From a virus (Duplodnaviria > Caudoviricetes), in IMG/VR virus record IMGVR_UViG_3300032782_000002: 64,000 nt of DNA; one strand, written 5' to 3'. Shown in pieces: positions 9,935 to 63,851 of this stretch; position 1 is the stretch's first letter; the number at the start of each line of letters is the position of its first letter. The notes below the pieces were generated by a model, which was not told the origin of the DNA, did not search any database, and worked only from the letters and a program-made list of their open reading frames with translations. A program made the translations under genes and the position numbers.

Positions 9935-10323
9935 GCGCGTAGCGACTCCGCCATCTCGCGGTGGCACTCGGGACTGCAGATGCACTCGCGATCCCCGCCC
10001 AGCGCCTCGACGGCCTTGTAGATGTCCTCGCCGCAGTTCATGCAGCGCCCCACCCGGACCTGCGTGCCGGGTGTCCACGGGATGTACTCGCCCACGCCGG
10101 CCCCGAATTGCCCGGCGGTGGGGTCCACGATCTCGCCCTGCGGTGTGACGCACCACCAGTGCTCGACGCGCCCGGCGGGAGCGACCATCACGTGCCCCGG
10201 GATCGCCTTCAGCTCCGGAAACGTCTCGACCATCTCGCGCGTCGCGCTCTGACACGTGCCGTAGAGGCGGTCGTGATGGCGCTTGGCGAACGCAGCGATC
10301 CACGCAGCATACTCAGGGTTCAT
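9931..10323 (-). CDS. Hypothetical protein, possible transglutaminase/papain-like fold
   Basis: GTC...EHWWC...IVDPTAGQF gives a Cys-His-Asp arrangement. Confidence 0.4.
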   Translation of the reverse strand: MNPEYAAWIAAFAKRHHDRLYGTCQSATREMVETFPELKAIPGHVMVAPAGRVEHWWCVTPQGEIVDPTAGQFGAGVGEYIPWTPGTQVRVGRCMNCGEDIYKAVEALGGDRECICSPECHREMAESLRA

Positions 10324-26452: not shown

Positions 26453-26468
26453 GGGTGTCGGGCTCCTC

Positions 26469-27596
26469 TTACTGCGCCAGCAGGGTGGCCATGCGGGGCG
26501 TGTACTTCGCCATCAGCACGTGCGGCCGGGTGAGCTTGGTCACGGCGTTCTTGTCGCGCTTGGCGACGTCCCGGTAGTGGGTGACGAGCATGTCGCCGCC
26601 GACCACCGCGGCGTCGAACCCGCCGGTGTCCGTGACGTGCCCCATGATCTCCCAGGCGGCCGCCCAGCGCTTCTCGGTGAAGTCACTCTGCACCGCGGCC
26701 ACGACGGCCGTCAGCGCGGCGATGGAGCGGTCCACGCGGTCCGCCTCCAGGGTGATGCTCTTCGGGTCCGCGAGCCACGCCTCAGCGTCGACGAGGTCGG
26801 CGTCCGTGCAGTAGGCCATGAAGGAGATGGCGGCGCCCTCGCCCACGCATCCGCTCAGCAGCGCGAGGCGGTCGTCGACGCTGTAGCCGAGTGACGCCGC
26901 GACGGCGTACACCTTCTCGGCGGCCTCCCACGATCGGGGGCTCGGCCACGCCTTGCCCGCCAGGGTGGGATCGTCCGGCTCGTTGTCGAGCATGTCCGGC
27001 ATTCGCTTGATGAACGCGCTCGCCAGGGCCTTGACCTTGGTGAGCGCGCGAGACTGCTCGTCCGCGTCTGGCGTCGGGAAGTCGGCCTCGTCGGCGGCCC
27101 AGCCGACCAGCTGCGCCTGCGCCCACGCCTGCGGGTTGGCCGGCACCTGCAGGTGGCAGAACCGGTTGGCGGCGGCGCTGCCCAGCGCGCGCGCGCTCTG
27201 GCCTCGCTTGACCGGGTTGCCGGCGGCGACGACGGCGACGTACTCCGGCGGCGCGTCGATGCGGTCCAGGGCCGCGTTCTCGGTCTCGCGCGTGGCCCGG
27301 TTCAACTCGTCGTAGAAGGCGATGCCGCCCTTGACCTTGCGGGCCTCGATGACGAGATCCTCGATCTCGGGCGGATCGCAGACGATGACGCGGCCCTCGT
27401 GGTAGACGCGGGGCTTGAGGTCGATGGGCTCGCAGCGGCTCAGCAGCCAGCGCTTGTAGTGCCGGCCGGTGATGCGCGCGTACGCCTCGGTGCGGCTCGT
27501 CTTGCCGGTGCCAGGGCCGCCCTCCATGTAGACGGGCACCAGCGCCGTGACGCAGGCGTGCAGACGGCGCATGATCGGATCGGGGTGAAGGTTCAT
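26469..27596 (-). CDS. MoxR-family AAA+ ATPase
   Basis: GGPGTGKT, FYDELNRA, AAGNP, NRF, PSPRSW. Confidence 0.88.
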   Translation of the reverse strand: MNLHPDPIMRRLHACVTALVPVYMEGGPGTGKTSRTEAYARITGRHYKRWLLSRCEPIDLKPRVYHEGRVIVCDPPEIEDLVIEARKVKGGIAFYDELNRATRETENAALDRIDAPPEYVAVVAAGNPVKRGQSARALGSAAANRFCHLQVPANPQAWAQAQLVGWAADEADFPTPDADEQSRALTKVKALASAFIKRMPDMLDNEPDDPTLAGKAWPSPRSWEAAEKVYAVAASLGYSVDDRLALLSGCVGEGAAISFMAYCTDADLVDAEAWLADPKSITLEADRVDRSIAALTAVVAAVQSDFTEKRWAAAWEIMGHVTDTGGFDAAVVGGDMLVTHYRDVAKRDKNAVTKLTRPHVLMAKYTPRMATLLAQ

Positions 27597-28112
27597 CGGG
27601 AAGCTCCGGGTGGGGTGGGCGGGTTGACGGCAGCGGCCTCGTAGAAGGACCGCGAGGTGACGGGTGGACGGTTGGCGCGTACGCCGTACGCGCCGGTGTG
27701 GCGCTCTGCCCAGCGCCAGAAACGCGCGTTGCAGGTGGGGCAGCGTAAGGGCTCGTTGCAGTAGTGATCCATCTCGACGGTGGGGCGCTCGCGGCGAGCG
27801 CGCACGCGGTCGCAGGCGTCGTACAAGGCGGCCTTCTCGGCCTCGTAGGTGCCGAATCGGTACCACGTCTCGCCCGGTGCGGGCGGCTGCCCGATGCTCG
27901 CCTCGATGGCGGGGTTGTACCGGGTCAAGACGTCGTCGACCGTCTCGGTGACCCCGGGATCCCGGACGCGCCAGACCATGGCCGGCGGCCGCTTGGCGGC
28001 GGGCATCGCCAACCACGCCACGGCTTCCGCCCCGATGGCGCGCAAGCGGGCGACGATCTCGGCCGGCGTGCGCTTGGGGGTTGCGGTGTCCACGGTGGTC
28101 ATTGGAAGCTCC

Positions 28113-34836: not shown

Positions 34837-35610
34837 CTAGACGATCCGGCGCACCGATCCGCCGAACTTGTCGTAGAGCAGGAAGCTTCCCGCGGCGATG
34901 GCGCCGCCGAGGGCAAACCCCCCGAGGACGGTAGCGATCTTGCTCCACGTCGTCCCGAAGTCCTCCCCGCGGACCGGATCGTGCGGCTTCTCGCCGGGGC
35001 GCGCGGCGTACATGGCGGCAAGCGCGTTCTGTACCGCCTCGGAAGCGCTCTGCTTGGCGACGAAGTGACCGAGGTCGGCGACCGTGATGTAGCCTTTGCC
35101 GTCCCAGTCTAGGCCCGGGTTGGCGTTGTAGACGGCGGCTTCGCTGAGCGACGATCCAGGGATGTTGTCGCTCGACCCTTGCGTCGCCAGTACGCTATCG
35201 AGCGTCGTCGCCGTCGCGAGCGTCGAGGGCAAAAAGTTCGCCTGATAGGCGCGCGTCCCTGATCGGATCTGTCCGAAGTGCGAGATGATGGACTGGAACA
35301 TCGGTGCGATGCCGCTCTGGAGCTGCTGACTCGCGCTCCAGTCTCCGTATCCATCCGGCACGTTGGGCGGGCACATCTGGTTGAGCCCGACACATCCAAT
35401 GCTGTTCGTGACCGTCGTCGAGAACCCGCTCTCGTTGTAGAGCACCGGAAGAAGGTACTCGGGGCGCGGCAGTCGGCCTGCGTCGAACTCTTGCCAGTAG
35501 ACGGTGGCGAACGCGGGGAAGTCGAGCGCGCCGACGTAGCCGTACCCGGCGCCGGCCTGCTGGATGGCGCGACGGGTTGCATGCGGGAGTAGGTAGAGAG
35601 CGCTCGGCAC
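34837..35610 (-). CDS. Lytic transglycosylase-like protein with a C-terminal transmembrane anchor
   Basis: LYNESGF catalytic Glu, CVGLNQM motif, hydrophobic C-terminal helix. Confidence 0.7.
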   Translation of the reverse strand: MPSALYLLPHATRRAIQQAGAGYGYVGALDFPAFATVYWQEFDAGRLPRPEYLLPVLYNESGFSTTVTNSIGCVGLNQMCPPNVPDGYGDWSASQQLQSGIAPMFQSIISHFGQIRSGTRAYQANFLPSTLATATTLDSVLATQGSSDNIPGSSLSEAAVYNANPGLDWDGKGYITVADLGHFVAKQSASEAVQNALAAMYAARPGEKPHDPVRGEDFGTTWSKIATVLGGFALGGAIAAGSFLLYDKFGGSVRRIV

Positions 35611-35625
35611 GGGCTCAGTCTACCA

Positions 35626-36204
35626 CTACAAAGCCAGGCGTCGCGCCATGTGCAGCGCGGCGACGCCGTAGCGGCCATAGAGCCAGTAGCCCCCGTATGC
35701 GAGCGCGCCCCCGATGGCTAGCCCGACTAGCGCAAGCGCGATCTTGTGCGCCCAGGGTCGAACGGGTGCGGGCAGGATGGGCGCGGCGAGCAGATCTGCG
35801 GTGGGATCGGGGTGGGTCGTTCCCTGATCGAACGACCCCGTGGGCCAGACTTGAAAGTGTACGTGGGAGATGCCGACGAGCGCGGCGTTGCCCGTCGTGT
35901 CCACTCGCCCGATCTGTTCCCCGCGCTGCACCTGGCGTGTGCCCGACTGCGCGTCGAGCAGGTGCGCGTAGTAGTACGCCGTACCGTCGGCCACGTGCAG
36001 AATGGCGACGTTGCCCCCGAACGGATCGGTGCCGTAGTTGACGATGCCATCGTCCACGGCGACTGCTGCGGAGCCTTGTGGCGCGCAGAGATCGCACGCA
36101 TCGTGCAGCGCCGTCGTCCCGTCTGTCGCGGGCCGGTTGCCGTAGCCAGCGCAGATGTCGCGCTCGACGCCAGCGATGGGGTAGACGGCGATGGCCACGA
36201 CCAA
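35626..36204 (-). CDS. M23 peptidase with a C-terminal transmembrane anchor
   Basis: HDACD (HxxxD), YYAHL, HVHF (HxH), hydrophobic C-terminus. Confidence 0.85.
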   Translation of the reverse strand: MVVAIAVYPIAGVERDICAGYGNRPATDGTTALHDACDLCAPQGSAAVAVDDGIVNYGTDPFGGNVAILHVADGTAYYYAHLLDAQSGTRQVQRGEQIGRVDTTGNAALVGISHVHFQVWPTGSFDQGTTHPDPTADLLAAPILPAPVRPWAHKIALALVGLAIGGALAYGGYWLYGRYGVAALHMARRLAL

Positions 36205-42201: not shown

Positions 42202-43215
42202 ATGCGCCTCACCGCGCGCGTCGTGGATGTCGCGGAGCACGGTCGGCGACTGTCGCTTGAGCAGGGCTTCCTGGTTGTCCACGACGAACGACGCGCCGAG
42301 CTTGGGCGCGTTCCGCTAGATGACGTTGGCGCGGTGCTCCTGCACGCGCAGGGCACGAGCTGTACGACACCCCTCATAGCGGCCCTGGCACACCGTGGAG
42401 CCGTGCTCGCGGTGTGTGACGGCCATCATCTACCCGTCGCGTGGACCCTGCCGGTCGGAGATCATTCGGGGCAGGCGCGCACTATCGCCGCTCAGGTGGA
42501 TGCTCCCAAGCCGTTCACCAAGCGGTTGTGGCAGTACGTTGTTCAGGCCAAGATCGCTTCGCAGGCGGACGTGTTGGCGGTGTGCGGGAAGAACCGCGCG
42601 CTGCTCGACGGTCTGGTCGGACTTGTGCGCTCTGGCGATCCGGCGAATGTCGAAGCGCGCGCCGCGCAGGCGTACTGGCCGACGTTGTTCGGGGCGGCCT
42701 TCCGGCGTGATCGCGAGGCACCGGGCATCAACGCGGCGCTCAACTACGGCTACACGGTGTTGCGCGCCTCGGTGGCGCGCGCCGTTGTCGCCTGCGGCCT
42801 GCACCCAAGTATCGGCGTCAAGCACCGTCGTGACCCGCTCGCTCTCGTGAGTGATCTGATGGAGCCGTTTCGTGCGGTGGTCGATTGTCGGGTGGCGATC
42901 ATGGCGGTGGACGGGCGCGCTGATACGAGCCGCCGCTCACGTGAGGAGCTGGTGGAGCTGCTCGGCGGTGACATCGAGGCGGGCGTGATGCGGTTCGCGC
43001 GATCGATCGGGGACGCTTACCTGACGGGTGTGTGCCCGGTGTGGAGGCGATCGGATGTGGCTGTTGGTGCTGTTCGATCTGCCGGCGACGACACGCGCGG
43101 ATCGCTGGTTAGCGTCGCGGTTCCGGAACGCCCTTCTGGCCCGCGGCTTCGAGAGGCTTCAGCTGTCGGTGTACACGCGGAGGTGCCCTGGGGCGGCGAC
43201 GACGCTGGCGGCTGA
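42202..43215 (+). CDS. cas1: CRISPR integrase Cas1, type II-like
   Basis: GRVPLDDV, GDPANVEARAAQAYW, INAALNYGYTVLRA, GLHPSIGVKH, SDLMEPFR; catalytic E/H/D present. Confidence 0.95.
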   Translation: MRLTARVVDVAEHGRRLSLEQGFLVVHDERRAELGRVPLDDVGAVLLHAQGTSCTTPLIAALAHRGAVLAVCDGHHLPVAWTLPVGDHSGQARTIAAQVDAPKPFTKRLWQYVVQAKIASQADVLAVCGKNRALLDGLVGLVRSGDPANVEARAAQAYWPTLFGAAFRRDREAPGINAALNYGYTVLRASVARAVVACGLHPSIGVKHRRDPLALVSDLMEPFRAVVDCRVAIMAVDGRADTSRRSREELVELLGGDIEAGVMRFARSIGDAYLTGVCPVWRRSDVAVGAVRSAGDDTRGSLVSVAVPERPSGPRLREASAVGVHAEVPWGGDDAGG

Positions 43216-43351
43216 TGTACGCCGTCTTTTGCCGGCGAGCGGCAGCGCGTGCCTAATCGAGCTGACGGATCTGCAGTACGAGGGGCTCGTTCGTCTGCAA
43301 GGCGGCGAGCCGCTGGTCTTTGAAAAACCGAAGCGGCTGATCTCGTTCTGA
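43055..43351 (+). CDS. cas2: Cas2, type II-like
   Basis: MWLLVLFDLP...FRNALLARGFERLQLSVY...LTDLQYE; GGAGG RBS at 43043-43047. Confidence 0.93.
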   Translation: MWLLVLFDLPATTRADRWLASRFRNALLARGFERLQLSVYTRRCPGAATTLAADVRRLLPASGSACLIELTDLQYEGLVRLQGGEPLVFEKPKRLISF

Positions 43352-43423
43352 GGTCTGAGGCCGCCTTTCTCAAGCGCGCCGCGGATGGATTGCCGTGGGG
43401 TGCTGGGGTGTTGCGTGAAGTCA

Positions 43424-45517
43424 GATGCAAGGGGATGCGATCCCCTTGTGAGTTCCAACACCGACTACCGGATGATCGTCCTGGCGACGTCGATGCAAGG
43501 GGATGCGATCCCCTTGTGAGTTCCAACGGGCGCGGCGCATGACATCCCCCGTCACTGCCGATGCAAGGGGATGCGATCCCCTTGTGAGTTCCAACACGGC
43601 CGCGCATGCGCAGAGATCGGGGCGCGCGATGCAAGGGGATGCGATCCCCTTGTGAGTTCCAACACAGGCGCGCGAAGAAGAGGGCCAGACGTCTAGGATG
43701 CAAGGGGATGCGATCCCCTTGTGAGTTCCAACACGAACATGCGGCCGGTGCGCGGATCGATCTGGGATGCAAGGGGATGCGATCCCCTTGTGAGTTCCAA
43801 CTAGCGGGCGAGGGCGGCGCGGAGCCTGCGGTGGATGCAAGGGGATGCGATCCCCTTGTGAGTTCCAACTTGATCCCGACGCATCCGATCGAGTTGACCG
43901 CGATGCAAGGGGATGCGATCCCCTTGTGAGTTCCAACTCTTTGCCGAGCGCCAGGCGCTGCATGTAGAAGATGCAAGGGGATGCGATCCCCTTGTGAGTT
44001 CCAACCCAGAGGCGCGCGCCGCTCCCGAAGTGGTCGCGGGATGCAAGGGGATGCGATCCCCTTGTGAGTTCCAACTCGCGCACCGCGTGCGTGTCCAGGT
44101 AGCTGCGATGCAAGGGGATGCGATCCCCTTGTGAGTTCCAACGCGGGGCCCGCGAAGACCGCTTGCAGGAAGAAGATGCAAGGGGATGCGATCCCCTTGT
44201 GAGTTCCAACGACTACATGACCGAGACCGCAGCCACGGTTTCGATGCAAGGGGACGCGATCCCCTTGGGAGTTTCAACCGAGGGTGGCTCCAACAGCACC
44301 ATGGGTCTCCGCTGCAAGGGGGAACGATCCCCTTGAGAGTTCCAACTGGCTGCACACAAGGCATAGGCACCGCTCGTGATCAAGGGGACTAGATCCCCCT
44401 GGGAGTTTCAACATTAGGGCCTGATAGACGTTGTGGACGGCGGCGATGCGGGGGGATTCGATCCCCCTGGGAGTTTCAACGAGTGAGACCCGAGACCAAC
44501 CCAATCCAGTAGGATGCAAGGGGGTTCGATCCCCCTGGGAGTTTCAACTGGGACGTGACGCTGACGCCGGCCGGCGGCAGATGCAAGGGGGTTCGATCCC
44601 CCTGGGAGTTTCAACCTCATGGGTGGCGATCAGGCGGGTGGGCGCGCGATGCAAGGGGGCACGATCCCCTTGGGAGTTCCAACCTCGACAAGGCGCTGCG
44701 ACGGGATAGGTGCGTGATGCAAGGGGGCTCGATCCCCTTGAGGGTTCCAACGACATGCGGGTGCCTCTCAACCACGACGATCAGTGCGAGGGGACGTGAT
44801 CCCCTTGAGGGTTCCAACTTGATGCCGCGGTCGGCCGATGCTGACACGGAGATGCGAGGGGGATGAGATCCCCTTGGGAGTTTCAACTCGGCCACGCACA
44901 GCAAGACGTCGCGGTCTTCGATGCAAGGGGATGAGATCCCCTTGGGAGTTCCGCCGTGAGGTGGCTACCGCTGCGCTCGTGAGCTTGCGGTGCAGGGGAT
45001 GAGATTCCCCTCGTGAGGTCCAACCCCATGGCCTTTTCGATCAACTCGTCGCGCACGAGATGCAAGGGGACGTGATCCCCTTGATGGTTTCAACGTGAAC
45101 CGCACAGCGGAGGGCTAGACGTACGGGATACAAGGGGGCGATCCCCTTGAGATGTTTCAACTGGTTGGCGAAGCCGACGGCGAACGCGATGCAAGGGGAT
45201 CCCCTTGAGAGTTTCAACCAGGCCGCGCAGCAGGGCCGCGCGCATCACGGATGCAAGGGGGTGTGATCCCCTCGCGAGTTCCAACTCGATCATTGTCACC
45301 GTGCGGGCGAGGACCAGGCGGATGGCAAGCAAGGGGAGTGATCCCCTTGATAGTTTCAACTTGCGGACGTACGCGCGCACCTGGTTTCAACTGGAGTGCC
45401 TCGGGCGCGTTGCCGTCGTGCTCGGACGCAAGGGGATGAGATCCCCTTGGGAGTTTCAACGGCATCGTGGCACCGAGCGGGAGGAGCAAGGGGAGCGATC
45501 CCCTTGAGAGTTTCAAC
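43424..45517 (+). CRISPR. CRISPR array: ~31 repeats plus one remnant, 36-nt repeat, spacers mostly 31-34 nt
   Basis: Repeat GATGCAAGGGGATGCGATCCCCTTGTGAGTTCCAAC; first 12 copies identical (43424-44210), later copies degenerate; 72-bp leader after cas2. Confidence 0.98.
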
Positions 45518-45858: not shown

Positions 45859-46625
45859 CGGCGCCCAGGGTCTTTTGCGTGCGCGCCACGGCGCCGTACG
45901 CGTGCTGGACCAACCCGGCGCTCACGGCCGAGAGGTTCTCGTACCCCGTGCCGACTCCCGTCGGGCTGGAGGGGGTGCTCAAGTCGGTGTTCTGGCGCAA
46001 GGGCCTGCGCTACCAGATCCAGTCCATCGGCATCTGCGCGCCGATCCGGCGCCACCTGCTGCGCCGCAACGAGATCGACCACACGCCCCGTGCGGATGCG
46101 AGCACGGGGTTCAACGGCGACCGGTACGCCGTGCAGCGCATGACCAGCCGTCTCAAGGACGTGGACTACCGCGTGGAGTTCGTACTCGATCTCGACGACG
46201 GCTACAGGGATCGCTCGCTGCTGATGAAGTGCGAGGCGATGCTGTCGCGCTACCTGGATCGCGGCCACTGCTTCCAGCAGCCGTTCTTCGGCTGCAGGGA
46301 GATGGTGGGCGATGTCCGGTGGGCGGAGACCTCCGATCCGACCCCGATTGCCGAGACGCGGCCGCTCGGGCGGATGATCTACGGCTACATCTGGGACAAC
46401 GCGCGCAACCGCCGTGACGTCGTGCTGGAGTACGAACCGCACCTCGATCACGGTGTGGTTCATGTCCCGCCGCGCGGCGAGGTGTTGCGTCTCAACGGGG
46501 TGGCGCGCCCCGGAGTCGCGACGCCGCACCCGCCAGCGCATCCTCGACGGCCTCGCGCTCGTCCTGGGACACGTCCTGCCGGTCGCTCGCATCTGCCCAC
46601 CAGGTCGAAAGGAACTGCGGCGTGA
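45855..46625 (+). CDS. cas5: Cas5c (Cas5d), type I-C
   Basis: ACWTNP...ERFSYPVPTP...FWRK...RRNEI, LKDVDY, GHCFQQPFFGCRE. Confidence 0.93.
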   Translation: MTAPRVFCVRATAPYACWTNPALTAERFSYPVPTPVGLEGVLKSVFWRKGLRYQIQSIGICAPIRRHLLRRNEIDHTPRADASTGFNGDRYAVQRMTSRLKDVDYRVEFVLDLDDGYRDRSLLMKCEAMLSRYLDRGHCFQQPFFGCREMVGDVRWAETSDPTPIAETRPLGRMIYGYIWDNARNRRDVVLEYEPHLDHGVVHVPPRGEVLRLNGVARPGVATPHPPAHPRRPRARPGTRPAGRSHLPTRSKGTAA

Positions 46626-48289
46626 GGCTGCTCCAGGCGCTGGCGGAGTTCGCCGACCACAACATCCCTGACCCGACGTTCGAACGGCGGCGCATCGCCT
46701 ACGTCGTCGTGGTGGCGCCGGACGGCTCGCTGGTCGAGATCGAGGAGCACGGGCAGGACGAGCAGGTGCCGCGCATCGACGGTGGCACCAACGCCGTCAA
46801 CCCCAAGTTCCTCGTCGACACGCCCCAGTACGTGTTCGGCCTCGGCGAACAGCCCGCGGATCGGCGCGCGAAGTGTCACGCGGCGTTCGCCCAGCTCATG
46901 GCGGACCTGGCGACCCAGTGTCCGGATGCGGGCTTGAAGGCTGTCGCGGCTTTCATGCGCAAGCCGGTGCCGGCGAAGGCCAAGGCGCTGTCGCTCAAGG
47001 GTACCGAGTGGATGACGTTCCGGCTGCAGGGCGACAAGAGGTTCGTGTTCGAGCGGCCGAAGGTGCGTCGCTTGTGGAACGCCCGCATCGCGGCAGCGGG
47101 CTCCGATCTCAAGGCCGTGTGCCGCGTGACAGGCCGCACCGCTCCGATCGCGATGCTGCACCCCACCATCGCGATGCCAGACAGCAAAGGCGCCAAGCTG
47201 GTCAGCTTCAACCTCGATGTGTCCCGCTTCGAAGGTCGCAAACAAGGCGCGAACTTCGAGGTGTCGCAGGACGTGGCGCGCGCGTACGGCGCGGCGCTCA
47301 AGTTCATGCTGGAGCGCAAGGAAGACGGGCAGCTCAGGTCGGCCGCCTTCTTCAAGGGCGACCTGAAGGGCAGCGCCATGGGGACCGTCGTGCCCTTCAC
47401 CAAGGACGGCCGATCCATGCAGCCGCTGCTCGACGTGCTGATGCTGCCGTTCATCAAGGACGAGCGCGAGCGGTCTGCGCGTCTGGAGCAGGCGTGGGCG
47501 ACGATGACCGCCTGGTGCGCCGACGACGAACTGCTGCACGTCGTGATCCTCAAGAGCAACCAGGCCCGCATCATGGTGCTCGACTACTTCGAGCGGCCGC
47601 TGTCGGAGATCGCGGCCAACGTGTTGCAGTTTCGCCGCGAGGTGCTCGACGAGCTTGCACGCCCCGAGTCCGAGACGCCGCGTGCCGTGACGCTCGCGTA
47701 CCTGCTCAACACCATGATGGGTCCGGACGGACGCATCACGCCGTTCGCGTTGGGGATCCTGCGCGCCATGTTGTGCGGGGATCCGTACCCCCAGCCGCTC
47801 GCCTGGATGCGCGGTGAGAGCGGTGACGTATGGCGCCGGGCTATCCGGCGCCGCAGTCAGAAGGAGCCCGTTTCCATGAGTCTCGATCCCGACAACCCCG
47901 ACCAGGCGTACCAGCGCGGACGGCTGGCCGCGATCATCAAGGAACTGCACTACGAGGTGACTCGCGGGCGCGGGCAGTTGACGCTCGTGCCGTCGATCGC
48001 GCAGGCGGCCAAGATGCCCTCGTATGGCATGCAGCTGCTGCAGCGTCGCGCGCTCCAGTTCATCGACGCGCTCGAACGGCGCAACAACCGCGCCTCCGCC
48101 GCCGCGTACTACGAGGTCGCGGGCAAGATCGGGCCGGCGCCTATCCGCCACACGCGCGCGCAGGAGGAGTCGTTCATGCGCGGCTTCGTGGATCAGGTGC
48201 AGGCGCTGCGCGAGCGCATCCGCCGCTACCAGGAGGAGAAGAACGCTGTGGACGCCGTCGAAGGCGTCGAGGCCCCCGCGGCCGAGTAG
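46622..48289 (+). CDS. cas8c: Cas8c (Csd1), type I-C large subunit
   Basis: LLQAL N-terminus, FLVDTPQYVFG, CRVTG...LHPTI, GAKLVSFN, C-terminal LDPDNPDQAYQRGRL. Confidence 0.9.
   Translation: MRLLQALAEFADHNIPDPTFERRRIAYVVVVAPDGSLVEIEEHGQDEQVPRIDGGTNAVNPKFLVDTPQYVFGLGEQPADRRAKCHAAFAQLMADLATQCPDAGLKAVAAFMRKPVPAKAKALSLKGTEWMTFRLQGDKRFVFERPKVRRLWNARIAAAGSDLKAVCRVTGRTAPIAMLHPTIAMPDSKGAKLVSFNLDVSRFEGRKQGANFEVSQDVARAYGAALKFMLERKEDGQLRSAAFFKGDLKGSAMGTVVPFTKDGRSMQPLLDVLMLPFIKDERERSARLEQAWATMTAWCADDELLHVVILKSNQARIMVLDYFERPLSEIAANVLQFRREVLDELARPESETPRAVTLAYLLNTMMGPDGRITPFALGILRAMLCGDPYPQPLAWMRGESGDVWRRAIRRRSQKEPVSMSLDPDNPDQAYQRGRLAAIIKELHYEVTRGRGQLTLVPSIAQAAKMPSYGMQLLQRRALQFIDALERRNNRASAAAYYEVAGKIGPAPIRHTRAQEESFMRGFVDQVQALRERIRRYQEEKNAVDAVEGVEAPAAE
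47876..48289 (+). CDS. cas11: Cas11 small subunit, internally translated from cas8c
   Basis: AAGGAG at 47861-47866, then in-frame ATG (MSLDPDN), the arrangement known from type I-C. Confidence 0.7.
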   Translation: MSLDPDNPDQAYQRGRLAAIIKELHYEVTRGRGQLTLVPSIAQAAKMPSYGMQLLQRRALQFIDALERRNNRASAAAYYEVAGKIGPAPIRHTRAQEESFMRGFVDQVQALRERIRRYQEEKNAVDAVEGVEAPAAE

Positions 48290-48345: not shown

Positions 48346-49347
48346 ATGCTGAAAACGAATGTGAAGCGCCGCGATCTCGTGCTGCTGTACGACGTGATGG
48401 ACGGGTCCGTGAACAACGATCCCGACACCAACGCGCCCCGCCAGGATCCCGACACCGGGATCGGCTCGGTCAGCGCCGAGTGTATCAAGCGCAAGATCCG
48501 TGACGAGGTCGCACGCGAGAAGGCGGGCGAGCCTGGTTACGAGCTGCTCGTGGCGCGCGGTGCGGTGCTCAACCGCGCCATCCGCGAGGCGTACGAGGAG
48601 GCGTCCGTCAAGATCCCGGACGCCCCGAAGAAGCCCGCGAAGGCTGCGAAGGCGGGTAAGAGCGGCAAGTCGGCGAGCGCGCCCAAGGACGACGAGGTGG
48701 CCGAGGACGAGGAGGTCGGGCAAGAGCGCGACCAGCGCGTCTCGGCCGCGGATGCTGCGCGCGGCAATAGGCGTCTCGTCGAGAAGTTCTTCGACGCGCG
48801 CTGGTTCGGCCAGGTCGTGACGGGTGTCGGTGCGGGGCGCATCACGGGTCCGGTGCAGATCCAGGAGGCGCGCTCGATCGTGCCGGTGCGCATCGACGAG
48901 GTCGCGCGTACGCGCGTGGCGACGACGAACGAGGAGCAGTCCAAGGCCCAGAAGGGGCTCAACCAGAATCGGTCGCGCAAGGCGCGGTTGTCGCATGCTC
49001 TCTACAAGCAGATGCTGCACATCTCGCCCTTCCAGGCGCTCACTACCGGGTTTTCCGAAAAGGACTTCGAGGTGCTGTTGAAGGCGCTCAAGTCGATGTT
49101 CGAGAACGATCGCTCGACTTCGCGCGGCATGGTCTCGATGCGTCAGATCGTCGTGTTCGAGCACACCGATCCGCTGGGCAGCGCGCGTGCGGTCGACCTG
49201 CTCAACAGCGTGCGCGTCGTGCCGCAGGTCGAGGCGCCGACGTGCTTCGAGCAGTACACCGTGACCATCGATCGCAGCACGCTCCCCGCGGGGGTGATCG
49301 TCACAACGGCGTGGCCGGAGGCGACGGCCTCCGCGGCGGCCGAGTAG
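48346..49347 (+). CDS. cas7: Cas7 (Csd2), type I-C backbone
   Basis: LLYDV.DG..NNDPD...PRQD..TG.G...CIKRKIRD, FFDARWFGQV, TGPVQI, TGFSE.D, MFENDRS..RG. Confidence 0.95.
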   Translation: MLKTNVKRRDLVLLYDVMDGSVNNDPDTNAPRQDPDTGIGSVSAECIKRKIRDEVAREKAGEPGYELLVARGAVLNRAIREAYEEASVKIPDAPKKPAKAAKAGKSGKSASAPKDDEVAEDEEVGQERDQRVSAADAARGNRRLVEKFFDARWFGQVVTGVGAGRITGPVQIQEARSIVPVRIDEVARTRVATTNEEQSKAQKGLNQNRSRKARLSHALYKQMLHISPFQALTTGFSEKDFEVLLKALKSMFENDRSTSRGMVSMRQIVVFEHTDPLGSARAVDLLNSVRVVPQVEAPTCFEQYTVTIDRSTLPAGVIVTTAWPEATASAAAE

Positions 49348-49361
49348 GAAGACGCGCCGTG

Positions 49362-49390
49362 GGCGCCCGGCGTGTGGTGCGCCGGGCGCC
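49362..49390 (+). other. GC-rich hairpin between cas7 and the helicase
   Basis: GGCGCCCGGCG-TGTGGTG-CGCCGGGCGCC, 11-bp stem, no U-tract. Confidence 0.6.
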
Positions 49391-49413
49391 GCTGCGTTAT
49401 GAGGGACCACACG

Positions 49414-51753
49414 ATGGGTATCAAGCGGCTGCACTACTACCAGCAGCGGCTGGTCAAGCAGTTGTTGGCTGTGCCGGCGACGCAGCAAGAGATCGGGGTG
49501 GTCTACCCGCAGGGCTCGGGCAAGACGCTCATACTGTTGTGCTACGCGGCTCTCGCTCTTGGGTCGCGTGTCAGCCACGTGCTCGTTGTGTGCCCGCAGG
49601 GGCAGATCTCGGACGCGTGGCGCCGCCCAAGTGGCCTGTGGAGTGTGGGTGGTGGCCTCTGCGTGAACCTGGATGATCTCGTGGACCTCGCCGGTGAGGG
49701 GCTCACGGGCACTGTCGAGAATGTGTGCGGCTACCTGAAGTTGCCGCGCGCGGATCGCGTGTTGATCGCGCAGCACGCGACGCTCACGTGGTCGCGACCA
49801 GGCAGCGACGGTCCGGCACTGCTCGACTCTCTACCCCAAGATCTGTCCGGCTACGTGCTGGTCATCGACGAGGCGCACCGCAACCGCGCGGTGGGGCTGT
49901 CGCGGATCCGTACTGTGTGGTTGGCGCGCGGCGGTACGGTCATCGACGTGACCGCGACACCGTATCGTACCGACAGGCAGCCCGTGATGGGGCCGACCGC
50001 GCGCGTCTTCTCGCGTAGCTACGCCCTGCACGCGGTTGAGGGGTACGCGCCGAGCAACATCGAGACGGCCATCATTCCGGTGCCCGTGCCAGCGGCGGCG
50101 ACCGACGGCCTGGACAAGGATGCGTGGATCGAGCACGTCTGCGATCGGGTTGTCGCCCAGTGGTCTCAGGACGGTCGCCCGAAGGCGGTCGTGCACGTGC
50201 CCGCCATCGCGCGGGAAGACTCGGGTGAGGACAGCGGCGAGCCGTTCTTGCATGAGAAGATCGTGAATCGGCTCGGCGATCTGTTTCGCGCGCGTGGGGT
50301 CCCCGTGTTCGCGGCATTCGATCGACAGCGCTCCGATATGGTGACGGCGCAGTTCATCGAGATGCTCCGGCAGGAGCGGGATCGCGCCGCGCAGGGCTAC
50401 GCGGCGTCCAAGTACGATGTCATCCTGGCCGTGCGGCGGATGGATGAGGGGACCGACTGGCCGTTCTGCTCGGCCGTCTACTTCATCGACATGCCTGGCG
50501 CGCAGTGGATCATCGAACAGGTCTTCGGCCGCGCGACGCGCGACAAGCGCACCATCCCCGGCTACCCGGCAGCGTGGGTCGATCGAGTCCGCGTCGCATT
50601 CTTCATCGCCGACGCGGACACCGCCGTGCGCAAGCACCCGCTGTCGACGTTCATCTCGGCGTGCATGCTGGCCGATCACGGCATCTCGCAGCGCATCGCG
50701 AACCTGAGGCGGATCAAGACAAGCTTGGAGCGCGCTATCGGGCACCGTGCCGGTCGGATCGTGCGCCAGATCGCCGAGATGTGCGACGTACCCGCGGACG
50801 TCAGTGCGTTGATCGAGGGCTCGATCATCGCGACGTCTTCTCGGGATCCGGCTGTCATCGAGCGCCACCTGGCTGCGTCGGGCAAGCCGGTCGCGCCGTC
50901 CGTGCTCGCGGGGTATCTGGCACTGCGTGACGGATCGTCGGCAGAGGCGGTGGCCGGCGCGTACGTAGGTCGCCACCGCGACCGCGATCCGTACGGGCTG
51001 GCGGATCTCGACACGGCGTTGCTCGCGGCCTTCGAGGAGCCGAGCAAACAGTTCGCGCACGGTCGCGTCACGGCCGCCTATGACGAACGTACAAAGGCGA
51101 TCATCGCCTCGCTCGCCAGGTTCGACGCCCAGGAGGCTTCCGAACCGGCTGAAGTGGCGCGCAAGTACCTCCAGCTCGCGGCCACGCCGTTGGATCTCAC
51201 CGACATCCAGGTGGCCGTGCGCAAGTTTGTTGACGAGCGCCGCGTCCATCCGATGTATCGGGACGGTCCCGTGCGACCCGGTCTCATGTGGTCCGAGGTC
51301 GTGGCCGCCGTCCTTGAAGGTGCGCGTGGACTACCGCGCTACGATTCGTGGAACCACTTCTGCCGTGACGCGCTCGGGGCAGACGCGAAGGACGCGAAGG
51401 ATGCCTGGGCTGACGACTACGCGGCCGTGGTTGGGGTCGAGTACTTCGATCTGACCGATGACGCATCGGTGCGGGCGAAGATGATGCGCGCGTACCCCAA
51501 GCTCAGCTCCAAGGATGCCCCGGCTCTCTGCCGCGCGGTGCACTTGTTCGGGGCCGATCTCGTCGCGAGTCTTGGTGCGGAGGCGGCCGTGCCGCTCGGG
51601 GACAAGAAAGTCTGGAAGCAGCTACAGGGTCAGAACCGCCGCGCCATCGACAAGCTTCGGCGCGACATTCTGGCGCGCCGGGATCGCGGCGAGACGTTTC
51701 AGGCCGGCGACGTGCGGCGCGAGCTGAAGCGGCACATCGACACGGCAGGTTGA
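49414..51753 (+). CDS. SF2 DEAH helicase (ResIII/HsdR-like), CRISPR-associated, no HD domain
   Basis: LHYYQ, PQGSGKT, LVIDEAH, TATPYR, MDEGTDWP, EQVFGRATR; ~330-aa C-terminal extension; start could also be 49399. Confidence 0.88.
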   Translation: MGIKRLHYYQQRLVKQLLAVPATQQEIGVVYPQGSGKTLILLCYAALALGSRVSHVLVVCPQGQISDAWRRPSGLWSVGGGLCVNLDDLVDLAGEGLTGTVENVCGYLKLPRADRVLIAQHATLTWSRPGSDGPALLDSLPQDLSGYVLVIDEAHRNRAVGLSRIRTVWLARGGTVIDVTATPYRTDRQPVMGPTARVFSRSYALHAVEGYAPSNIETAIIPVPVPAAATDGLDKDAWIEHVCDRVVAQWSQDGRPKAVVHVPAIAREDSGEDSGEPFLHEKIVNRLGDLFRARGVPVFAAFDRQRSDMVTAQFIEMLRQERDRAAQGYAASKYDVILAVRRMDEGTDWPFCSAVYFIDMPGAQWIIEQVFGRATRDKRTIPGYPAAWVDRVRVAFFIADADTAVRKHPLSTFISACMLADHGISQRIANLRRIKTSLERAIGHRAGRIVRQIAEMCDVPADVSALIEGSIIATSSRDPAVIERHLAASGKPVAPSVLAGYLALRDGSSAEAVAGAYVGRHRDRDPYGLADLDTALLAAFEEPSKQFAHGRVTAAYDERTKAIIASLARFDAQEASEPAEVARKYLQLAATPLDLTDIQVAVRKFVDERRVHPMYRDGPVRPGLMWSEVVAAVLEGARGLPRYDSWNHFCRDALGADAKDAKDAWADDYAAVVGVEYFDLTDDASVRAKMMRAYPKLSSKDAPALCRAVHLFGADLVASLGAEAAVPLGDKKVWKQLQGQNRRAIDKLRRDILARRDRGETFQAGDVRRELKRHIDTAG

Positions 51754-59104: not shown

Positions 59105-60454
59105 ATGACGGATGTACAGATCGAGATCGGAAGTGGTCGGGGCAAGATCGTCCTCGCGATCCCGCCCAACGCGGTCGGTCCGAACGCGGCGTGGTCTGTG
59201 GCTGACTGGTACGTCGATCCCGTGAGTGGGGACGACAGTCGCGACGGCCTGACACCGTCCACGGCGGTGCGAACCATCATGGGCGGCATCATCGCGCGCT
59301 GGGGCACGACGAGCCCCATCCTGAAGCAGAACACCACGATCCATCTGCTGAGCACCGAAACGGCTGGGCAAGAGGACGTCGTGCTCTCGCCCATCGTGAC
59401 GCAGACGGCGTGGTTCGCTGTCGTGGGCGTGCCGAAGCTCATCGCCAGCTTCTCGCTGGGGGCGGTCACTGCCAAGGCGCGCGGCAATCCGGGAACGCTT
59501 CTTCAGGCCGCGGGCTTTACGGCGCCCGGACTGGCTACGGGCCAGCTCGTCGTGAACACGACGTCCGGCAAGCAGAGCGAATGCTGGATCTACGCGCTGG
59601 GCGGCGGCGTCGCCACACTCTCGCAGCCGCTGGTGCCCGTCACTCCCGCCGCGGACGCGTCGAACTTTCCGGCATCGCCCCCCGCACAAGTCAACACGTG
59701 GGCGATCAACGACACCGTCGAGGTGTACGAGGTACCGCTGCTGAATCTGAAGGTCTGGCAGCCTGCCGGCGGCGACACGTCAGCCGCTTCGATCGGCGGT
59801 GTCGCATGGCTGCAGAACGTCTTTGTTCCGGATGTTGCCGGGACACCCGGCTACAGCTACCTGGCGGTTACCGGAACCATCACAGGGTGCGTGCCGTGGG
59901 TCGTCAGCTGCCGCATCCAGCCCTACGTGGAGATGCTCGGTCAGTCCGGCGGCGGCGTGCTCGGTGGCTTCGCCGTCAACTGTTACCTGGAAGGCGGCGC
60001 TCAGGTCGAGAACGCGAGCATGTGGGCGGGTGCTTGCCTGCTCTACGGTGTCGGTCTCGGCACGTTCGGTTCGATCGATGGCGACGCGATCGTGGAGTCG
60101 ATCGGGCTGTACGGCGCGGACAGCGCGTTTGTCGGGGCGGTCTACGTGCACACGTCGTACACCTCGTATGGAGGCGGTTGCGGAAAGCTGGATCCCACGG
60201 CGTACGGTACGGGCGCGCTCTGGGGCCCGGCAAGTCTGGCGCTCACGGATCGGTCGACGCTGCAGCTCGTCGGCGGTACGTGGGTCGACTGTCTCTTCCT
60301 CTCTCCGCTCACGATCGAGGGTGTGGGTACGGGCACGAGCTACGCGGGTGGCATCTGGACCGACGGCATCGACCTCACACCCACCAACCTCGACGCGCAC
60401 AGCGGCAGCCTGCAGAACCCGCGCACGAACTGCGGCTTCTTCCAGAACGCGTGA
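59105..60454 (+). CDS. Fibre/spike protein paralog A
   Basis: WYVDPVSGDDSRDGLT motif; colinear with the next gene. Confidence 0.7.
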   Translation: MTDVQIEIGSGRGKIVLAIPPNAVGPNAAWSVADWYVDPVSGDDSRDGLTPSTAVRTIMGGIIARWGTTSPILKQNTTIHLLSTETAGQEDVVLSPIVTQTAWFAVVGVPKLIASFSLGAVTAKARGNPGTLLQAAGFTAPGLATGQLVVNTTSGKQSECWIYALGGGVATLSQPLVPVTPAADASNFPASPPAQVNTWAINDTVEVYEVPLLNLKVWQPAGGDTSAASIGGVAWLQNVFVPDVAGTPGYSYLAVTGTITGCVPWVVSCRIQPYVEMLGQSGGGVLGGFAVNCYLEGGAQVENASMWAGACLLYGVGLGTFGSIDGDAIVESIGLYGADSAFVGAVYVHTSYTSYGGGCGKLDPTAYGTGALWGPASLALTDRSTLQLVGGTWVDCLFLSPLTIEGVGTGTSYAGGIWTDGIDLTPTNLDAHSGSLQNPRTNCGFFQNA

Positions 60455-61817: not shown

Positions 61818-63851
61818 ATGACCAAGCGAAGCATTCAGATTGGTGGCGGCCGAGGACCGATCGCGCTCGATGCGGACGACATCAACTACGAACCCGAGAC
61901 GCCTGGCGATTGGCCGTCGCCGCCACCCGAAGACGTCGGGCAGGCCCTCGATCAGTTGGCGGCCAAAAGCGGCGATTCGGCGTTCATCAGCATCAAGGAG
62001 TTCGGCGCAGCCGGGAACGGTACGCACGACGATGCTCCGGAGTTTCTGACGGCGGAAACGTACGTCGCTCCTCGCGGCATCACGTTGTGGCTGCCGGGAG
62101 GCAACACGTTCCTTCTGCGAACGAAGTGGGTGACGCCCAACAACACGCAGATGCGGGGTTCACCCACCGCCGTCGTCAACCAGCAGTACACGGCAGGCGC
62201 TGGTGCCGCGTGGAGCAATTCATTCATCTATCAGACGGCTGCCCAGACGACGCTTGGTTCGCTTCACTCGACACCATCGCTTGGCGACGTGTCGCTGGAC
62301 ATCGACGTGCCGGCAGCTCCCGTCGTCGGTCAGCCGATCTTCGTGGAGAACGGACCCGGTCTTCTCACCGCGGCCACGTACAGAATCACGTCGGTCACGC
62401 ACGTATCGGGCACGCACTACACGGTCGGGATCTCTCGGCCCGTCGTGTTCCCATTCGTCGCCACCGGTTCTGGCGTGGCGCTTTGCGCGTCGGCGCCGAG
62501 CAACATCCTGAACGATGGACAGCAGATGACTGTGTCGGGCACCGGCGACGCGGTGTGGGAACTCTTCGCGGCTATGGGCTGCGAGATCCGTGGTCTGAAC
62601 TACGACGAGCGATTCGGTGATGTCACAGGTCTTGGTGGATCGGTCGGCAACCTTGACGCAGGCGGTTACTCCAACCTCGCCAGCGACAGCAAGGCAGTCG
62701 TGGGAGGCGCGACCGAGTCGGGCTGGCAGATGCAGAGCCAGGAGCGCTCTGTCTTTCGCCGACTGGAGTGTAGCTGGCTCGGTACTGGGCCGAGCTTCAA
62801 CGGGATCGCGATCTACGACTCCTACAACAGCACGGCCGAGGACTGCTGGGTCTACGGAACCACGTCCGTCAACGCCGCAGCCATCGGCTTCAACCTGGGC
62901 ACCTTCGGTCCAGGCAACTGCGGCAACATCTCGTGCAGCATTCGAGGCGGCGGCGTCATCGACATGGGCGTCGGCGTCTTCGTCGGCCAGTCGGTGGACA
63001 CCGGCATCAGCGACTTCGTCGCTCAGAAGTGCAACATCGGCATCGAAGTCTTCACTGGCGCCTCAGGCACGGTGATCCGTAACGCGAACGTGTCGTACAA
63101 CAACGACGGGCTGTACCTGTCGGGCTCCACCGACACGGAGGTCTACGGCCTCGACATCAGTCACTGCACCGGATACGGCCTCTACGCTGGCGCTCCGGTG
63201 CGCGCGTACGGTGTCAAGGGCGACTTCGCCTCGACGGACACGGCCTTCTGCATCCATCAGCCTGCGGCCGGCACCGCGATGCTTCTATCTGGTGCGCGCC
63301 TCAACTCCGCCGTCGTGAGCGGCATCGGCGTCAACGTGAGCGGATCCGGCTGCACGATCGAAGACTCGACATTCACGATGACGGGCGGAGGCGCGAGCTG
63401 CGCGGTCACCGTCAACGCTGGCGATGTGTACCTGAGCGGCGTCAAGAGCGTCAGCTCGGTGTACGGCGTCATCGGCTACGGCGGAACGGTTCACATCGGG
63501 CCTGGATGTGACTTCAGCGGCGGCGCCAACGCTCTGTTCTTCGGCGGATCCGCGTTTGTGATGGAGCAGACTGGCGGCGTCGCGGCCATTCCCGGGACGG
63601 CCAGCCCTGTCGCGCTGACATTCCTCCAGCACTACAACATGAGCATCGAGCTTGCCGCTGGCGCCACGGGCGACACCACGGTGACGACGTACCCGATCCC
63701 GGGCCTGACGTTCGTCGCACGCAACCTGAGTGCGCACAACCTCGTCGTGAAGACGTCGAGCGTAGCTACGGTCACGGTCGCGGCGGGAAAGTCGGCCGAG
63801 ATCCAGGTGGACGAAGCCGGCGACATGGTCCGCGTGACGGTGGACCAGTGA
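61818..63851 (+). CDS. Right-handed beta-helix spike/depolymerase (pectate-lyase-like)
   Basis: SIKEFGAAGNGTHDDA N-terminal motif, LWLPGG, repeated beta-helix rungs. Confidence 0.78.
   Translation: MTKRSIQIGGGRGPIALDADDINYEPETPGDWPSPPPEDVGQALDQLAAKSGDSAFISIKEFGAAGNGTHDDAPEFLTAETYVAPRGITLWLPGGNTFLLRTKWVTPNNTQMRGSPTAVVNQQYTAGAGAAWSNSFIYQTAAQTTLGSLHSTPSLGDVSLDIDVPAAPVVGQPIFVENGPGLLTAATYRITSVTHVSGTHYTVGISRPVVFPFVATGSGVALCASAPSNILNDGQQMTVSGTGDAVWELFAAMGCEIRGLNYDERFGDVTGLGGSVGNLDAGGYSNLASDSKAVVGGATESGWQMQSQERSVFRRLECSWLGTGPSFNGIAIYDSYNSTAEDCWVYGTTSVNAAAIGFNLGTFGPGNCGNISCSIRGGGVIDMGVGVFVGQSVDTGISDFVAQKCNIGIEVFTGASGTVIRNANVSYNNDGLYLSGSTDTEVYGLDISHCTGYGLYAGAPVRAYGVKGDFASTDTAFCIHQPAAGTAMLLSGARLNSAVVSGIGVNVSGSGCTIEDSTFTMTGGGASCAVTVNAGDVYLSGVKSVSSVYGVIGYGGTVHIGPGCDFSGGANALFFGGSAFVMEQTGGVAAIPGTASPVALTFLQHYNMSIELAAGATGDTTVTTYPIPGLTFVARNLSAHNLVVKTSSVATVTVAAGKSAEIQVDEAGDMVRVTVDQ

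What the first reader, a model, noticed from the sequence alone, without database searches (positions are those of the whole stretch)
43870..43901. Spacer 7 encodes the same peptide as this element's own transglycosylase, pointing to targeting of related viruses
Seen: the reverse complement of spacer 7 reads A-V-N-S-I-G-C-V-G-I-(N/K), and the ORF at 34837-35610 contains V-T-N-S-I-G-C-V-G-L-N. Against 35381-35412 the DNA identity is only 21/32, and every mismatch within NSIGCVG is synonymous. That is the signature of a diverged homologous gene, not self-targeting. Inference: the array is used in competition between related viruses. If the target keeps Asn-Gln, its 5' flank would be YTGR rather than the canonical I-C TTC PAM.
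Basis: partly seen in the sequence, partly recalled or inferred. Interest (0 to 1): 0.8.

Follow-up and report, generated by a model that had tools for sequence, protein, structure and literature searches.

The report
Phage CRISPR spacer against rival's lysin gene
One spacer in the CRISPR array of this large phage-like element was copied from another element's version of a cell-wall-cutting gene that the element also carries, which fits the known use of CRISPR by mobile elements against competitors; the flank beside the target is unusual.

Summary
Spacer 7 (43870-43901), read in reverse complement, gives AVNSIGCVGI(N/K). The ORF at 34837-35610 (-) has VTNSIGCVGLN, and the DNA identity at 35381-35412 is 21/32.

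On the window alone this is weak: 21/32 is what every spacer reaches by chance, and the raw peptide score is not significant. Outside data settle it.
- The ORF belongs to a metagenome-only family of lytic-transglycosylase-like proteins. Its most conserved motif is NSIGCxGINQ.
- A profile built without the window's own protein scores the spacer peptide at 35 bits, against a null maximum of 20.8 in 20,000 trials.
- Homologues in a different, well-supported subclade match the spacer at exactly this in-frame site: 29/32 in two JGI contigs, 28/32 in two others (one with spacer bases 1-20 perfect). Background is 19-24.
- One homologue encodes exactly AVNSIGCVGIN.

Limits:
- No perfect protospacer was found.
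- The other 29 spacers have no traceable target.
- The target-type contigs share with this element only the lysin and two tailspike-like genes.

This is a new example of known inter-element CRISPR targeting. Earlier notes of this scan cover the same locus; none on other DNA came up.

The parts
43870..43901 (+). Spacer 7 (32 nt). As crRNA it is antisense to the lysin-family coding strand.
   Evidence: reverse complement encodes AVNSIGCVGI(N/K)
43424..45517 (+). CRISPR array: 31 repeats and 30 spacers. The first 12 repeats are identical and the later ones are degenerate.
43352..43423 (+). Presumed leader between cas2 and the first, perfect repeat.
   Evidence: inferred from the repeat-decay gradient and the repeat orientation: 9-bp hairpin plus an 11-nt TGAGTTCCAAC handle, read from the sequence
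42202..43215 (+). cas1 of type II kind.
   Evidence: Pfam Cas_Cas1; NCBIfam cas1_NMENI 212.7 bits against a cut-off of 120
43028..43351 (+). cas2.
   Evidence: Pfam CRISPR_Cas2; TIGR01573
45855..46625 (+). cas5c.
   Evidence: Pfam Cas_Cas5d
46622..48289 (+). cas8c/csd1.
   Evidence: Pfam Cas_Csd1 E 6.6e-67; TIGR01863 196.6 bits, below its cut-off of 218.65
48346..49347 (+). cas7.
   Evidence: Pfam Cas_Cas7
49372..51753 (+). SF2 helicase (ResIII / Helicase_C) in the Cas3 position, with no HD nuclease domain detected.
   Evidence: no NCBIfam Cas3 hit
34837..35610 (-). The element's own lytic-transglycosylase-like gene (P0001), with a C-terminal hydrophobic helix.
35381..35412 (+). The element's own site homologous to the protospacer. 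Identity 21/32; mismatches at spacer positions 5, 12, 18, 21-23 and 27-31; 5' flank CTGG.
35626..36204 (-). M23 peptidase next to the lysin gene. The two are fused in homologue P0019.
59105..60454 (+). 449-aa beta-rich, tailspike-like protein. Its homologues lie next to the lysin gene on the target-type contigs.
   Evidence: tblastn; low-confidence model (pLDDT 60) whose best Foldseek hits are phage tailspikes
61818..63851 (+). Beta-helix / pectate-lyase-like protein, weakly similar to the tailspike-like gene of L030.
   Evidence: Pfam; tblastn; L030 protein hits tailspike PHROGs

Best explanation
Spacer 7 is a piece of foreign DNA taken from another phage-like element's copy of a lytic-transglycosylase-like gene. 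It covers the segment that encodes the family's most conserved motif, next to the catalytic Glu-Ser.

Proposed mechanism:
1. The array is transcribed on the + strand from the cas2 side.
2. Cas5c cuts each repeat after the 9-bp hairpin, leaving an 11-nt 5' handle.
3. crRNA-7, carried by Cas5c-Cas8c-Cas7 Cascade, pairs with the coding strand of the rival's gene.
4. The linked SF2 helicase, which has no nuclease domain, then blocks or clears the rival's DNA or its transcription. This would exclude a competitor for the same host.
5. The element's own gene is spared because it differs at 11 of 32 positions, including seed position 5.

Shown here: the cas genes, the array, the spacer, its family origin, near-protospacers at 28-29/32, and their flanks.
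Inferred: expression, interference, its nuclease-free mode, and the ecological role.
For: - Locus anatomy: type II cas1 and cas2, the array, then cas5c, cas8c, cas7 and a helicase.
- The 12 leader-proximal repeats are identical and spacer 7 lies among them.
- Family motif NSIGCxGINQ. PSSM without the own protein: 35.3 bits against a null maximum of 20.8.
- Near-protospacers at the same in-frame site: L031 and L032 29/32; L026 28/32 with spacer positions 1-20 perfect; L028 28/32; L027 and L029 26/32; the own copy 21/32.
- Background for the other 29 spacers over 247 kb of these loci is 19-24 for the 30-34-nt spacers; none approaches spacer 7's 29/32.
- P0181 encodes exactly AVNSIGCVGIN.
- The best matches cluster in a subclade with 100/98 support that is separate from the own protein's clade.
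- Target-type contigs look phage-like: dense co-oriented small ORFs, tailspike PHROGs, phage methyltransferases. No relatives were found in the GTDB species genomes.
- No strand bias among spacers, 13 sense and 17 antisense, as expected for DNA targeting.
- Precedents: phage spacers against other phages, and a type I-C variant with a helicase instead of Cas3 (PMC7162821); carriers whose orthologous locus is mutated so that they avoid self-targeting (PMC6858448).
Against: - No perfect protospacer in IMG/VR, JGI metagenome contigs, GTDB genomes, INPHARED phages or PLSDB plasmids.
- The best match still has 3 mismatches.
- The target region is the family's most conserved stretch, so near-matches do not pin down the exact target lineage.
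- The flank TGG/TGA is not the TTC PAM of type I-C (10.1101/2022.06.15.496202), so Cascade may not act on it.
- There is no nuclease in the locus.
- 29 of 30 spacers are untraced.
- No viral hallmark gene was seen in this window or on the short target contigs.
- The source sample could not be searched.
Confidence: 0.72

Rival explanations
1. Inherited host memory. The CRISPR locus, with spacer 7 already in it, was captured from a bacterial host. The spacer would then record the host's immunity against phages carrying this lysin family, not a weapon the element acquired for itself.
For: Phage CRISPR loci ultimately come from cells. The distal two thirds of the array are decayed, which suggests long inheritance. 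The near-targets are phage-like elements that a host would also target.
Against: - Spacer 7 lies within the 12 identical leader-proximal units, next to an intact cas1-cas2 carried by the element.
- The only Cas8c relative found (42% identity) also sits on a phage-like contig with HNH and DnaB genes.
- No GTDB genome matched the spacer pattern.
Confidence: 0.13
2. A non-functional or accidental spacer. Type II Cas1-Cas2 without Cas9 takes up DNA without choosing a PAM, so spacer 7 is real foreign DNA but cannot guide the type I-C-like Cascade because the flank is TGR rather than TTC. It would have no biological role.
For: Cas1 is of type II kind and no cas9 is present. The flank is CTGG, CTGA or TTGG in all near-targets. 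The canonical type I-C PAM is TTC.
Against: The PAM of this divergent Cas8c is unknown; it scores below the NCBIfam cut-off. The array holds 30 spacers, 12 of them between perfect repeats, which argues for a system kept in use. A single spacer cannot define a PAM.
Confidence: 0.12
3. Chance resemblance, or a self-derived spacer whose source gene later mutated away.
For: 21/32 DNA identity and the raw peptide score are within chance for this GC-rich window.
Against: The PSSM score is 35 bits against a null maximum of 20.8. Members of another subclade match at 28-29/32. The spacer peptide fits the family consensus (Ile, Asn) better than the own protein does. A self-origin would need 11 changes in 32 nt, several of them non-synonymous.
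Confidence: 0.03

Closest known systems
Huge-phage CRISPR-Cas systems whose spacers target other phages, including a type I-C variant with a helicase instead of Cas3 (Al-Shayeb et al. 2020, PMC7162821)
   Same: A large phage-like genome (220,885-bp contig) carries Cas5-Cas8c-Cas7 plus a helicase without a nuclease. A spacer matches a gene of another phage-like element within 3 mismatches, which is the looser criterion of that paper.
   Different: That paper's type I-C variant lacks Cas1 and Cas2 and has compact arrays (median six repeats). This locus has a type II-kind Cas1-Cas2 and 30 spacers. The target here is the homologue of a gene the carrier also has.
Virus-borne mini-CRISPR arrays in interviral conflict (Medvedeva et al. 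2019, PMC6858448)
   Same: The spacer is aimed at a locus that the carrier also has, and the carrier's own copy is mutated so that it is not targeted.
   Different: Those are archaeal viruses with 1-2 spacers, no cas genes, near-identical sister strains and reciprocal targeting in one population. Here the target gene is only about 46% identical in protein, and reciprocity and co-occurrence could not be tested.
Type IV-A CRISPR-Cas of plasmids: DinG helicase, nuclease-free interference, inter-plasmid competition (10.1101/2023.06.23.546257; PMC11519345)
   Same: Works alike in outline: a Cascade-like complex with a helicase and no nuclease, carried by a mobile element and aimed at competing elements (abstracts).
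   Different: The Cas proteins differ (type I-C-like Cas5, Cas8c and Cas7, not Csf), the helicase family differs (ResIII-type, not DinG), and the locus has its own adaptation genes.
Canonical type I-C CRISPR-Cas (D. vulgaris type)
   Same: Cas5c, Cas8c and Cas7. The repeat has a hairpin followed by an 11-nt handle ending in AAC.
   Different: No Cas3 HD nuclease and no Cas4 found. The repeat is 36 nt and the spacers are 32 nt. Cas1 is of type II kind. The flank of the only traceable target is TGR, not TTC.

Membership tests
Type I-C CRISPR-Cas | Cas5c, Cas8c (Csd1) and Cas7 effector genes | tested here: met
   Pfam Cas_Cas5d, Cas_Csd1 (E 6.6e-67) and Cas_Cas7. Cas8c scores below the NCBIfam equivalog cut-off, 196.6 against 218.65.
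Type I-C CRISPR-Cas | Cas3 helicase-nuclease with an HD domain | tested here: not met
   The gene in that position matches only ResIII, Helicase_C and DEAD. There is no HD domain and no NCBIfam Cas3 model.
Type I-C CRISPR-Cas | Type I-C adaptation module (Cas1c, Cas2, Cas4) | tested here: not met
   Cas1 matches type II cas1_NMENI at 212.7 bits (cut-off 120) and cas1_DVULG at only 51 bits (cut-off 385). No Cas4 hit among the neighbours tested.
Type I-C CRISPR-Cas | 5'-TTC-3' PAM on the non-target strand | tested here: inconclusive
   All eight near-protospacers of spacer 7 have CTGG, CTGA or TTGG. This rests on one spacer, and no perfect target is known.
Mobile-element-borne CRISPR used against competing elements | The array lies on a viral or mobile genome | tested here: inconclusive
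   The contig is 220,885 bp. It carries phage-type helicase/HNH, tailspike-like genes and a lysin plus M23 peptidase. No capsid, portal or terminase was seen in this window.
Mobile-element-borne CRISPR used against competing elements | A spacer matches another element with few mismatches | tested here: met
   29/32 in L031 and L032; 28/32 in L026 (spacer positions 1-20 perfect) and L028. No 0-1-mismatch hit was found.
Mobile-element-borne CRISPR used against competing elements | The carrier's own orthologous site is diverged, so there is no self-targeting | tested here: met
   The own site has 11 mismatches, including seed position 5.
Mobile-element-borne CRISPR used against competing elements | Carrier and target occur in the same community; reciprocal targeting | not testable with these tools
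   No genome or sequencing runs were available for the source. The 14 spacers of the related array in L022 hit neither the window nor the other loci.
Lytic transglycosylase (lysozyme-like, SLT/GH23-type) | Catalytic Glu(-Ser) motif and lysozyme-like fold | tested here: met
   E60 and S61 are invariant in 33 sequences. PDB profile hit 9udh at E 8.8e-5. AF2 pLDDT 87, and the Foldseek top hits are 9udh, MltE, Slt, MltC, MltF and phiKZ gp144, but at weak E-values of 0.013 or more.
Lytic transglycosylase (lysozyme-like, SLT/GH23-type) | Match to a curated family model | tested here: not met
   No Pfam or NCBIfam hit; only a weak match to phrog_13530.

The most novel reading that the evidence does not exclude
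This hybrid system combines type II Cas1-Cas2, a type I-C-like Cascade and a helicase without a nuclease. It may recognise a PAM other than TTC (TGG or TGA), or none at all. It may silence rather than cut rival phages by sitting on the DNA that encodes an essential, slowly evolving catalytic motif. In the register of spacer 7, half of the codon wobble positions (spacer positions 6, 12, 18, 24, 30) fall on the bases that Cascade does not pair. One guide would then tolerate synonymous drift and cover many lineages of the lysin family.
Probability: 0.2. Interest if true: 0.65.

Novelty: new member of a known kind. Interest (0 to 1): 0.42.

Why it matters
This spacer is the only one in the array that can be tied to a target. 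It is therefore the only direct clue to what this unusual nuclease-less, hybrid CRISPR system of a large phage-like element is used for, and to what PAM it accepts.

It points to competition with other elements that carry the same cell-envelope penetration genes, and so probably use the same host. It also gives concrete sequences for a binding or repression assay: the spacer with flank CTGG or CTGA, compared with TTC.

The general idea, mobile elements using CRISPR against each other, is already established.

Tried and rejected
- **Exact spacer 7 and a codon-degenerate pattern for AVNSIGCVGI(N/K):** no match in IMG/VR, JGI metagenome contigs or GTDB genomes.
- **Relatives of the lysin:** none in IMG/VR, INPHARED phages or GTDB genomes. 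The first try of the GTDB search gave a machine error.
- **Whole array against phages and plasmids by blastn:** only a 24-nt core of spacer 12 in cluster-K Mycobacterium phages (E 0.2, flanks do not match) and a 29-nt, 93% match to Rhizobium megaplasmids (E 0.6). Both were treated as chance.
- **The 24-nt starts of spacers 1 and 12 in IMG/VR:** nothing.
- **A second spacer against the same gene:** spacer 15 matches 35108-35139 at 24/32, but this was rejected. The PSSM score is 4.0 bits, and the peptide replaces the nearly invariant Tyr161 and Asn164.
- **Spacer 18 against cas1 (23/32):** out of frame, so chance.
- **Reciprocal targeting:** the 14 spacers of the only related Cas8c locus (L022) gave no hits.
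- **Cluster members of the best homologues:** all are singletons.
- **Complex prediction:** not used; no binding claim is made.

Full report
**1. What is at the coordinates**

Positions 43424-45517 hold a CRISPR array of 31 repeats of 36 nt. The first 12 repeats are identical and the rest are progressively degenerate.

- Upstream lie cas1 (42202-43215) and cas2 (43028-43351).
- Downstream lie cas5c, cas8c/csd1 and cas7, followed by an SF2 helicase that matches only ResIII and Helicase_C and has no HD domain.
- Cas1 is of the type II kind: cas1_NMENI at 212.7 bits against a cut-off of 120, and cas1_DVULG at only 51 bits.

Read on the + strand, each repeat has a 9-bp hairpin followed by an 11-nt tail, TGAGTTCCAAC. 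This is the type I-C layout. Together with the decay gradient, it places the leader at 43352-43423 and makes the + strand the crRNA strand. This is my reading of the sequence and an inference.

Spacer 7 is 43870-43901. Its reverse complement reads AVNSIGCVGI followed by AA. ORF 34837-35610 (-) contains VTNSIGCVGLN. The ungapped identity to 35381-35412 is 21/32.

**2. Is it more than chance?**

On the window alone, barely.

- Each of the 30 spacers finds a 19-24/32 match somewhere in this 68%-GC window.
- A search of six frames against six frames with BLOSUM62 gives spacer 7 a score of 41. Of random codon-model 32-mers, 11% reach that score, because the junk frames are rich in Arg, Ala and Pro.
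- Weighting identities by residue rarity gives 32.5 bits against 26.0 +/- 1.7. That is p about 0.003 per spacer, or roughly 0.09 for the array.

The decisive evidence comes from outside the window.

**3. The gene family**

The ORF (P0001) has no Pfam or NCBIfam match. It does have 32 homologues in the 5.8-billion-protein set. A profile search finds 2027 cluster representatives at E <= 1e-3.

- The consensus around the invariant Glu60-Ser61 is LYSESGFxPSxxNSIGCxGINQxCP.
- A profile of the family hits the phage lytic transglycosidase 9udh at E 8.8e-5.
- An AlphaFold model (pLDDT 87) has almost only lytic transglycosylases among its best Foldseek hits (9udh, MltE, Slt, MltC, MltF, phiKZ gp144). 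The E-values are weak, 0.013 and above.

'Lytic-transglycosylase-like' is therefore reasonable. The neighbouring gene is an M23 peptidase, and the two are fused in homologue P0019.

**4. The spacer comes from a family member other than the own copy**

- A PSSM built from the 32 homologues, leaving out the window's own protein, scores the spacer peptide at 35.3 bits at exactly the motif position. The null is 6.0 +/- 2.4, with a maximum of 20.8 in 20,000 random 32-mers. No other spacer exceeds 10.5 bits.
- Where the spacer peptide differs from the own protein (Ile for Leu, Ala-Val for Val-Thr), it agrees with other members.
- P0181 encodes exactly AVNSIGCVGIN.

At the DNA level, identity to the spacer at the same in-frame site is as follows:

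| Locus | Source | Identity | Mismatched spacer positions |
|---|---|---|---|
| L031 | 12.9-kb JGI contig, 3300076623 | 29/32 | 15, 27, 28 |
| L032 | JGI contig, 3300081829 | 29/32 | 15, 27, 28 |
| L026 | Logan SRR28285666 | 28/32 | 21, 28-30 (positions 1-20 perfect) |
| L028 | JGI contig, 3300066614 | 28/32 | 6, 10, 11, 24 |
| L027 | Logan SRR32164460 | 26/32 | 6, 15, 18, 30-32 |
| L029 | ENA ERZ27259776 (encodes P0181) | 26/32 | 6, 9, 15, 21-23 |
| own gene | this window | 21/32 | 5, 12, 18, 21-23, 27-31 |

Across 247 kb of these loci, the other 30-34-nt spacers reach only 19-24.

In a maximum-likelihood tree, the best matches fall in one clade with 100/98 support (P0018, P0182, P0024, P0179, P0180, P0181). 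The own protein sits in a different clade. These proteins are about 46% identical to the own one.

No second family member on the 220,885-bp contig appeared in either protein search. A perfect self-target in a paralogue is therefore unlikely, although the rest of the contig could not be read.

**5. What carries the target-type genes**

The larger contigs (12.9 to 89 kb, GC 61-73%) are dense rows of mostly co-oriented small ORFs. They carry DNA methyltransferases, an integrase in one case, Prim-Pol/VapE, and Tad2-like and DUF5131 proteins.

- The 626-aa beta-helix protein of L030 hits tailspike PHROGs, and L031 has phage-type methyltransferase and phrog_3230 proteins.
- No relative was found in 185,579 GTDB species genomes, in INPHARED or in IMG/VR.

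With this window they share only three things:

- the lysin;
- a 449-aa protein (59105-60454), present in one or two copies right beside their lysin gene;
- weakly, the beta-helix protein at 61818-63851.

A low-confidence model of the 449-aa protein (pLDDT 60) best matches phage tailspikes.

The shared part is thus a module for penetrating the cell envelope. That argues for a similar host rather than for close kinship. 'Related viruses' is true only in this loose sense.

**6. The flank**

Asn-Gln follows the motif in nearly all members, and Gln78 is invariant. As a result, the four bases 5' of the protospacer, on the strand identical to the spacer, are CTGG (six loci), CTGA (L026) or TTGG (L030). 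The own gene has CTGG as well.

It is not the 5'-TTC-3' PAM of type I-C (10.1101/2022.06.15.496202 and PMC5602111, listed).

Three readings remain open:

- This divergent Cas8c reads another PAM.
- Type II Cas1-Cas2 without Cas9 takes up spacers without PAM selection.
- Spacer 7 is non-functional.

One spacer cannot decide between them.

**7. How it most likely works**

Shown:
- the gene set, the array and its polarity gradient;
- the origin of the spacer in a foreign member of the lysin family;
- near-targets with 3-4 mismatches;
- divergence of the own copy at 11 positions, including seed position 5;
- no strand bias among spacers, 13 sense and 17 antisense by a codon-model call that is 83% accurate on known genes.

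Inferred:
- crRNA-7 in Cascade binds the coding strand of a co-infecting element's lysin gene.
- The helicase, lacking a nuclease, blocks or strips the target or its transcription. This was proposed for nuclease-less phage systems in PMC7162821 and is reported for helicase-linked type IV-A systems in plasmid competition (abstracts).

In the register of spacer 7, codon wobble bases fall on spacer positions 3, 6, 9, ... 30. Half of these (6, 12, 18, 24, 30) are the positions that type I Cascades leave unpaired; this is established knowledge for type I-E and an inference here. The effective mismatches would then be 2 for L028, 3 for L031 and L026, and 8 for the own gene.

**8. Comparison with what is known, and novelty**

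Phage-encoded spacers against other phages, and a type I-C variant with a helicase instead of Cas3, are described in PMC7162821. Carriers whose own orthologous site is mutated to avoid self-targeting are described in PMC6858448. The finding is therefore a new example of a known kind.

What is less ordinary:
- an own adaptation module, of type II kind;
- a long array;
- a target that is a distant homologue (about 46% identical) of a gene the carrier keeps, hit at its catalytic motif;
- a flank that is not TTC.

**9. Limits**

- No perfect protospacer was found.
- 29 of 30 spacers are untraced.
- The source sample could not be searched.
- The viral nature of carrier and targets rests on gene content, not on hallmark genes.
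- Nothing is known about expression or interference.

Noticed in passing
window 44211-44242 (spacer 12): A 24-nt exact core, including an ATG and the first six codons (MTETAAT), matches the start of gp90 of cluster-K Mycobacterium phages (Fionnbharth, Wintermute, Eponine and others). E is 0.2 and the flanks do not match. It is a possible hint of an actinobacterial host range, or chance.
   Followed up: partly
L022:12448-13444 and L022:1-650: The only relative of this Cas8c (42% identity; MAG contig of GCA_017886315.1) has cas5-cas8c-cas7 followed by an array. The repeat is 36 nt, shares the GGGAGTTCCAAC tail, and separates spacers of about 36 nt. No cas1 or cas2 is present in the 13 kb. A second, degenerate array with a 29-nt repeat of type I-E appearance lies at the other end of the contig.
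   Followed up: partly
window 59105-60454; L031:1294-2862 and 3110-4432; L030:1025-2458; L024:12649-14019: A conserved protein of about 450 aa without Pfam or PHROG hits lies beside the lysin gene in the target-type contigs, duplicated in L031. In this window it lies 24 kb away from the lysin gene. A low-confidence model resembles phage tailspikes or depolymerases.
   Followed up: partly
window 4819-7491 (-): An SNF2-type helicase is interrupted by an intein with an HNH endonuclease (Pfam SNF2-rel_dom, Intein_splicing, HNH_3).
   Followed up: no
window 45361-45424: The 64-nt 'spacer 29' contains GGTTTCAAC at about 45383-45391. This is probably the remnant of a decayed repeat, so the old end of the array once held at least one more unit.
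   Followed up: no
window 9125-10303 (-) and 25211-28016 (-): A SET-domain protein, and a pair made of a DUF2201 metallopeptidase/VWA protein and an AAA ATPase, are encoded upstream. Their function in this element is unknown.
   Followed up: no
L019:10001-11242: In homologue P0019 the M23 peptidase and the lysin domain are fused into one 413-aa protein. In this window they are adjacent separate genes (35626-36204 and 34837-35610).
   Followed up: partly
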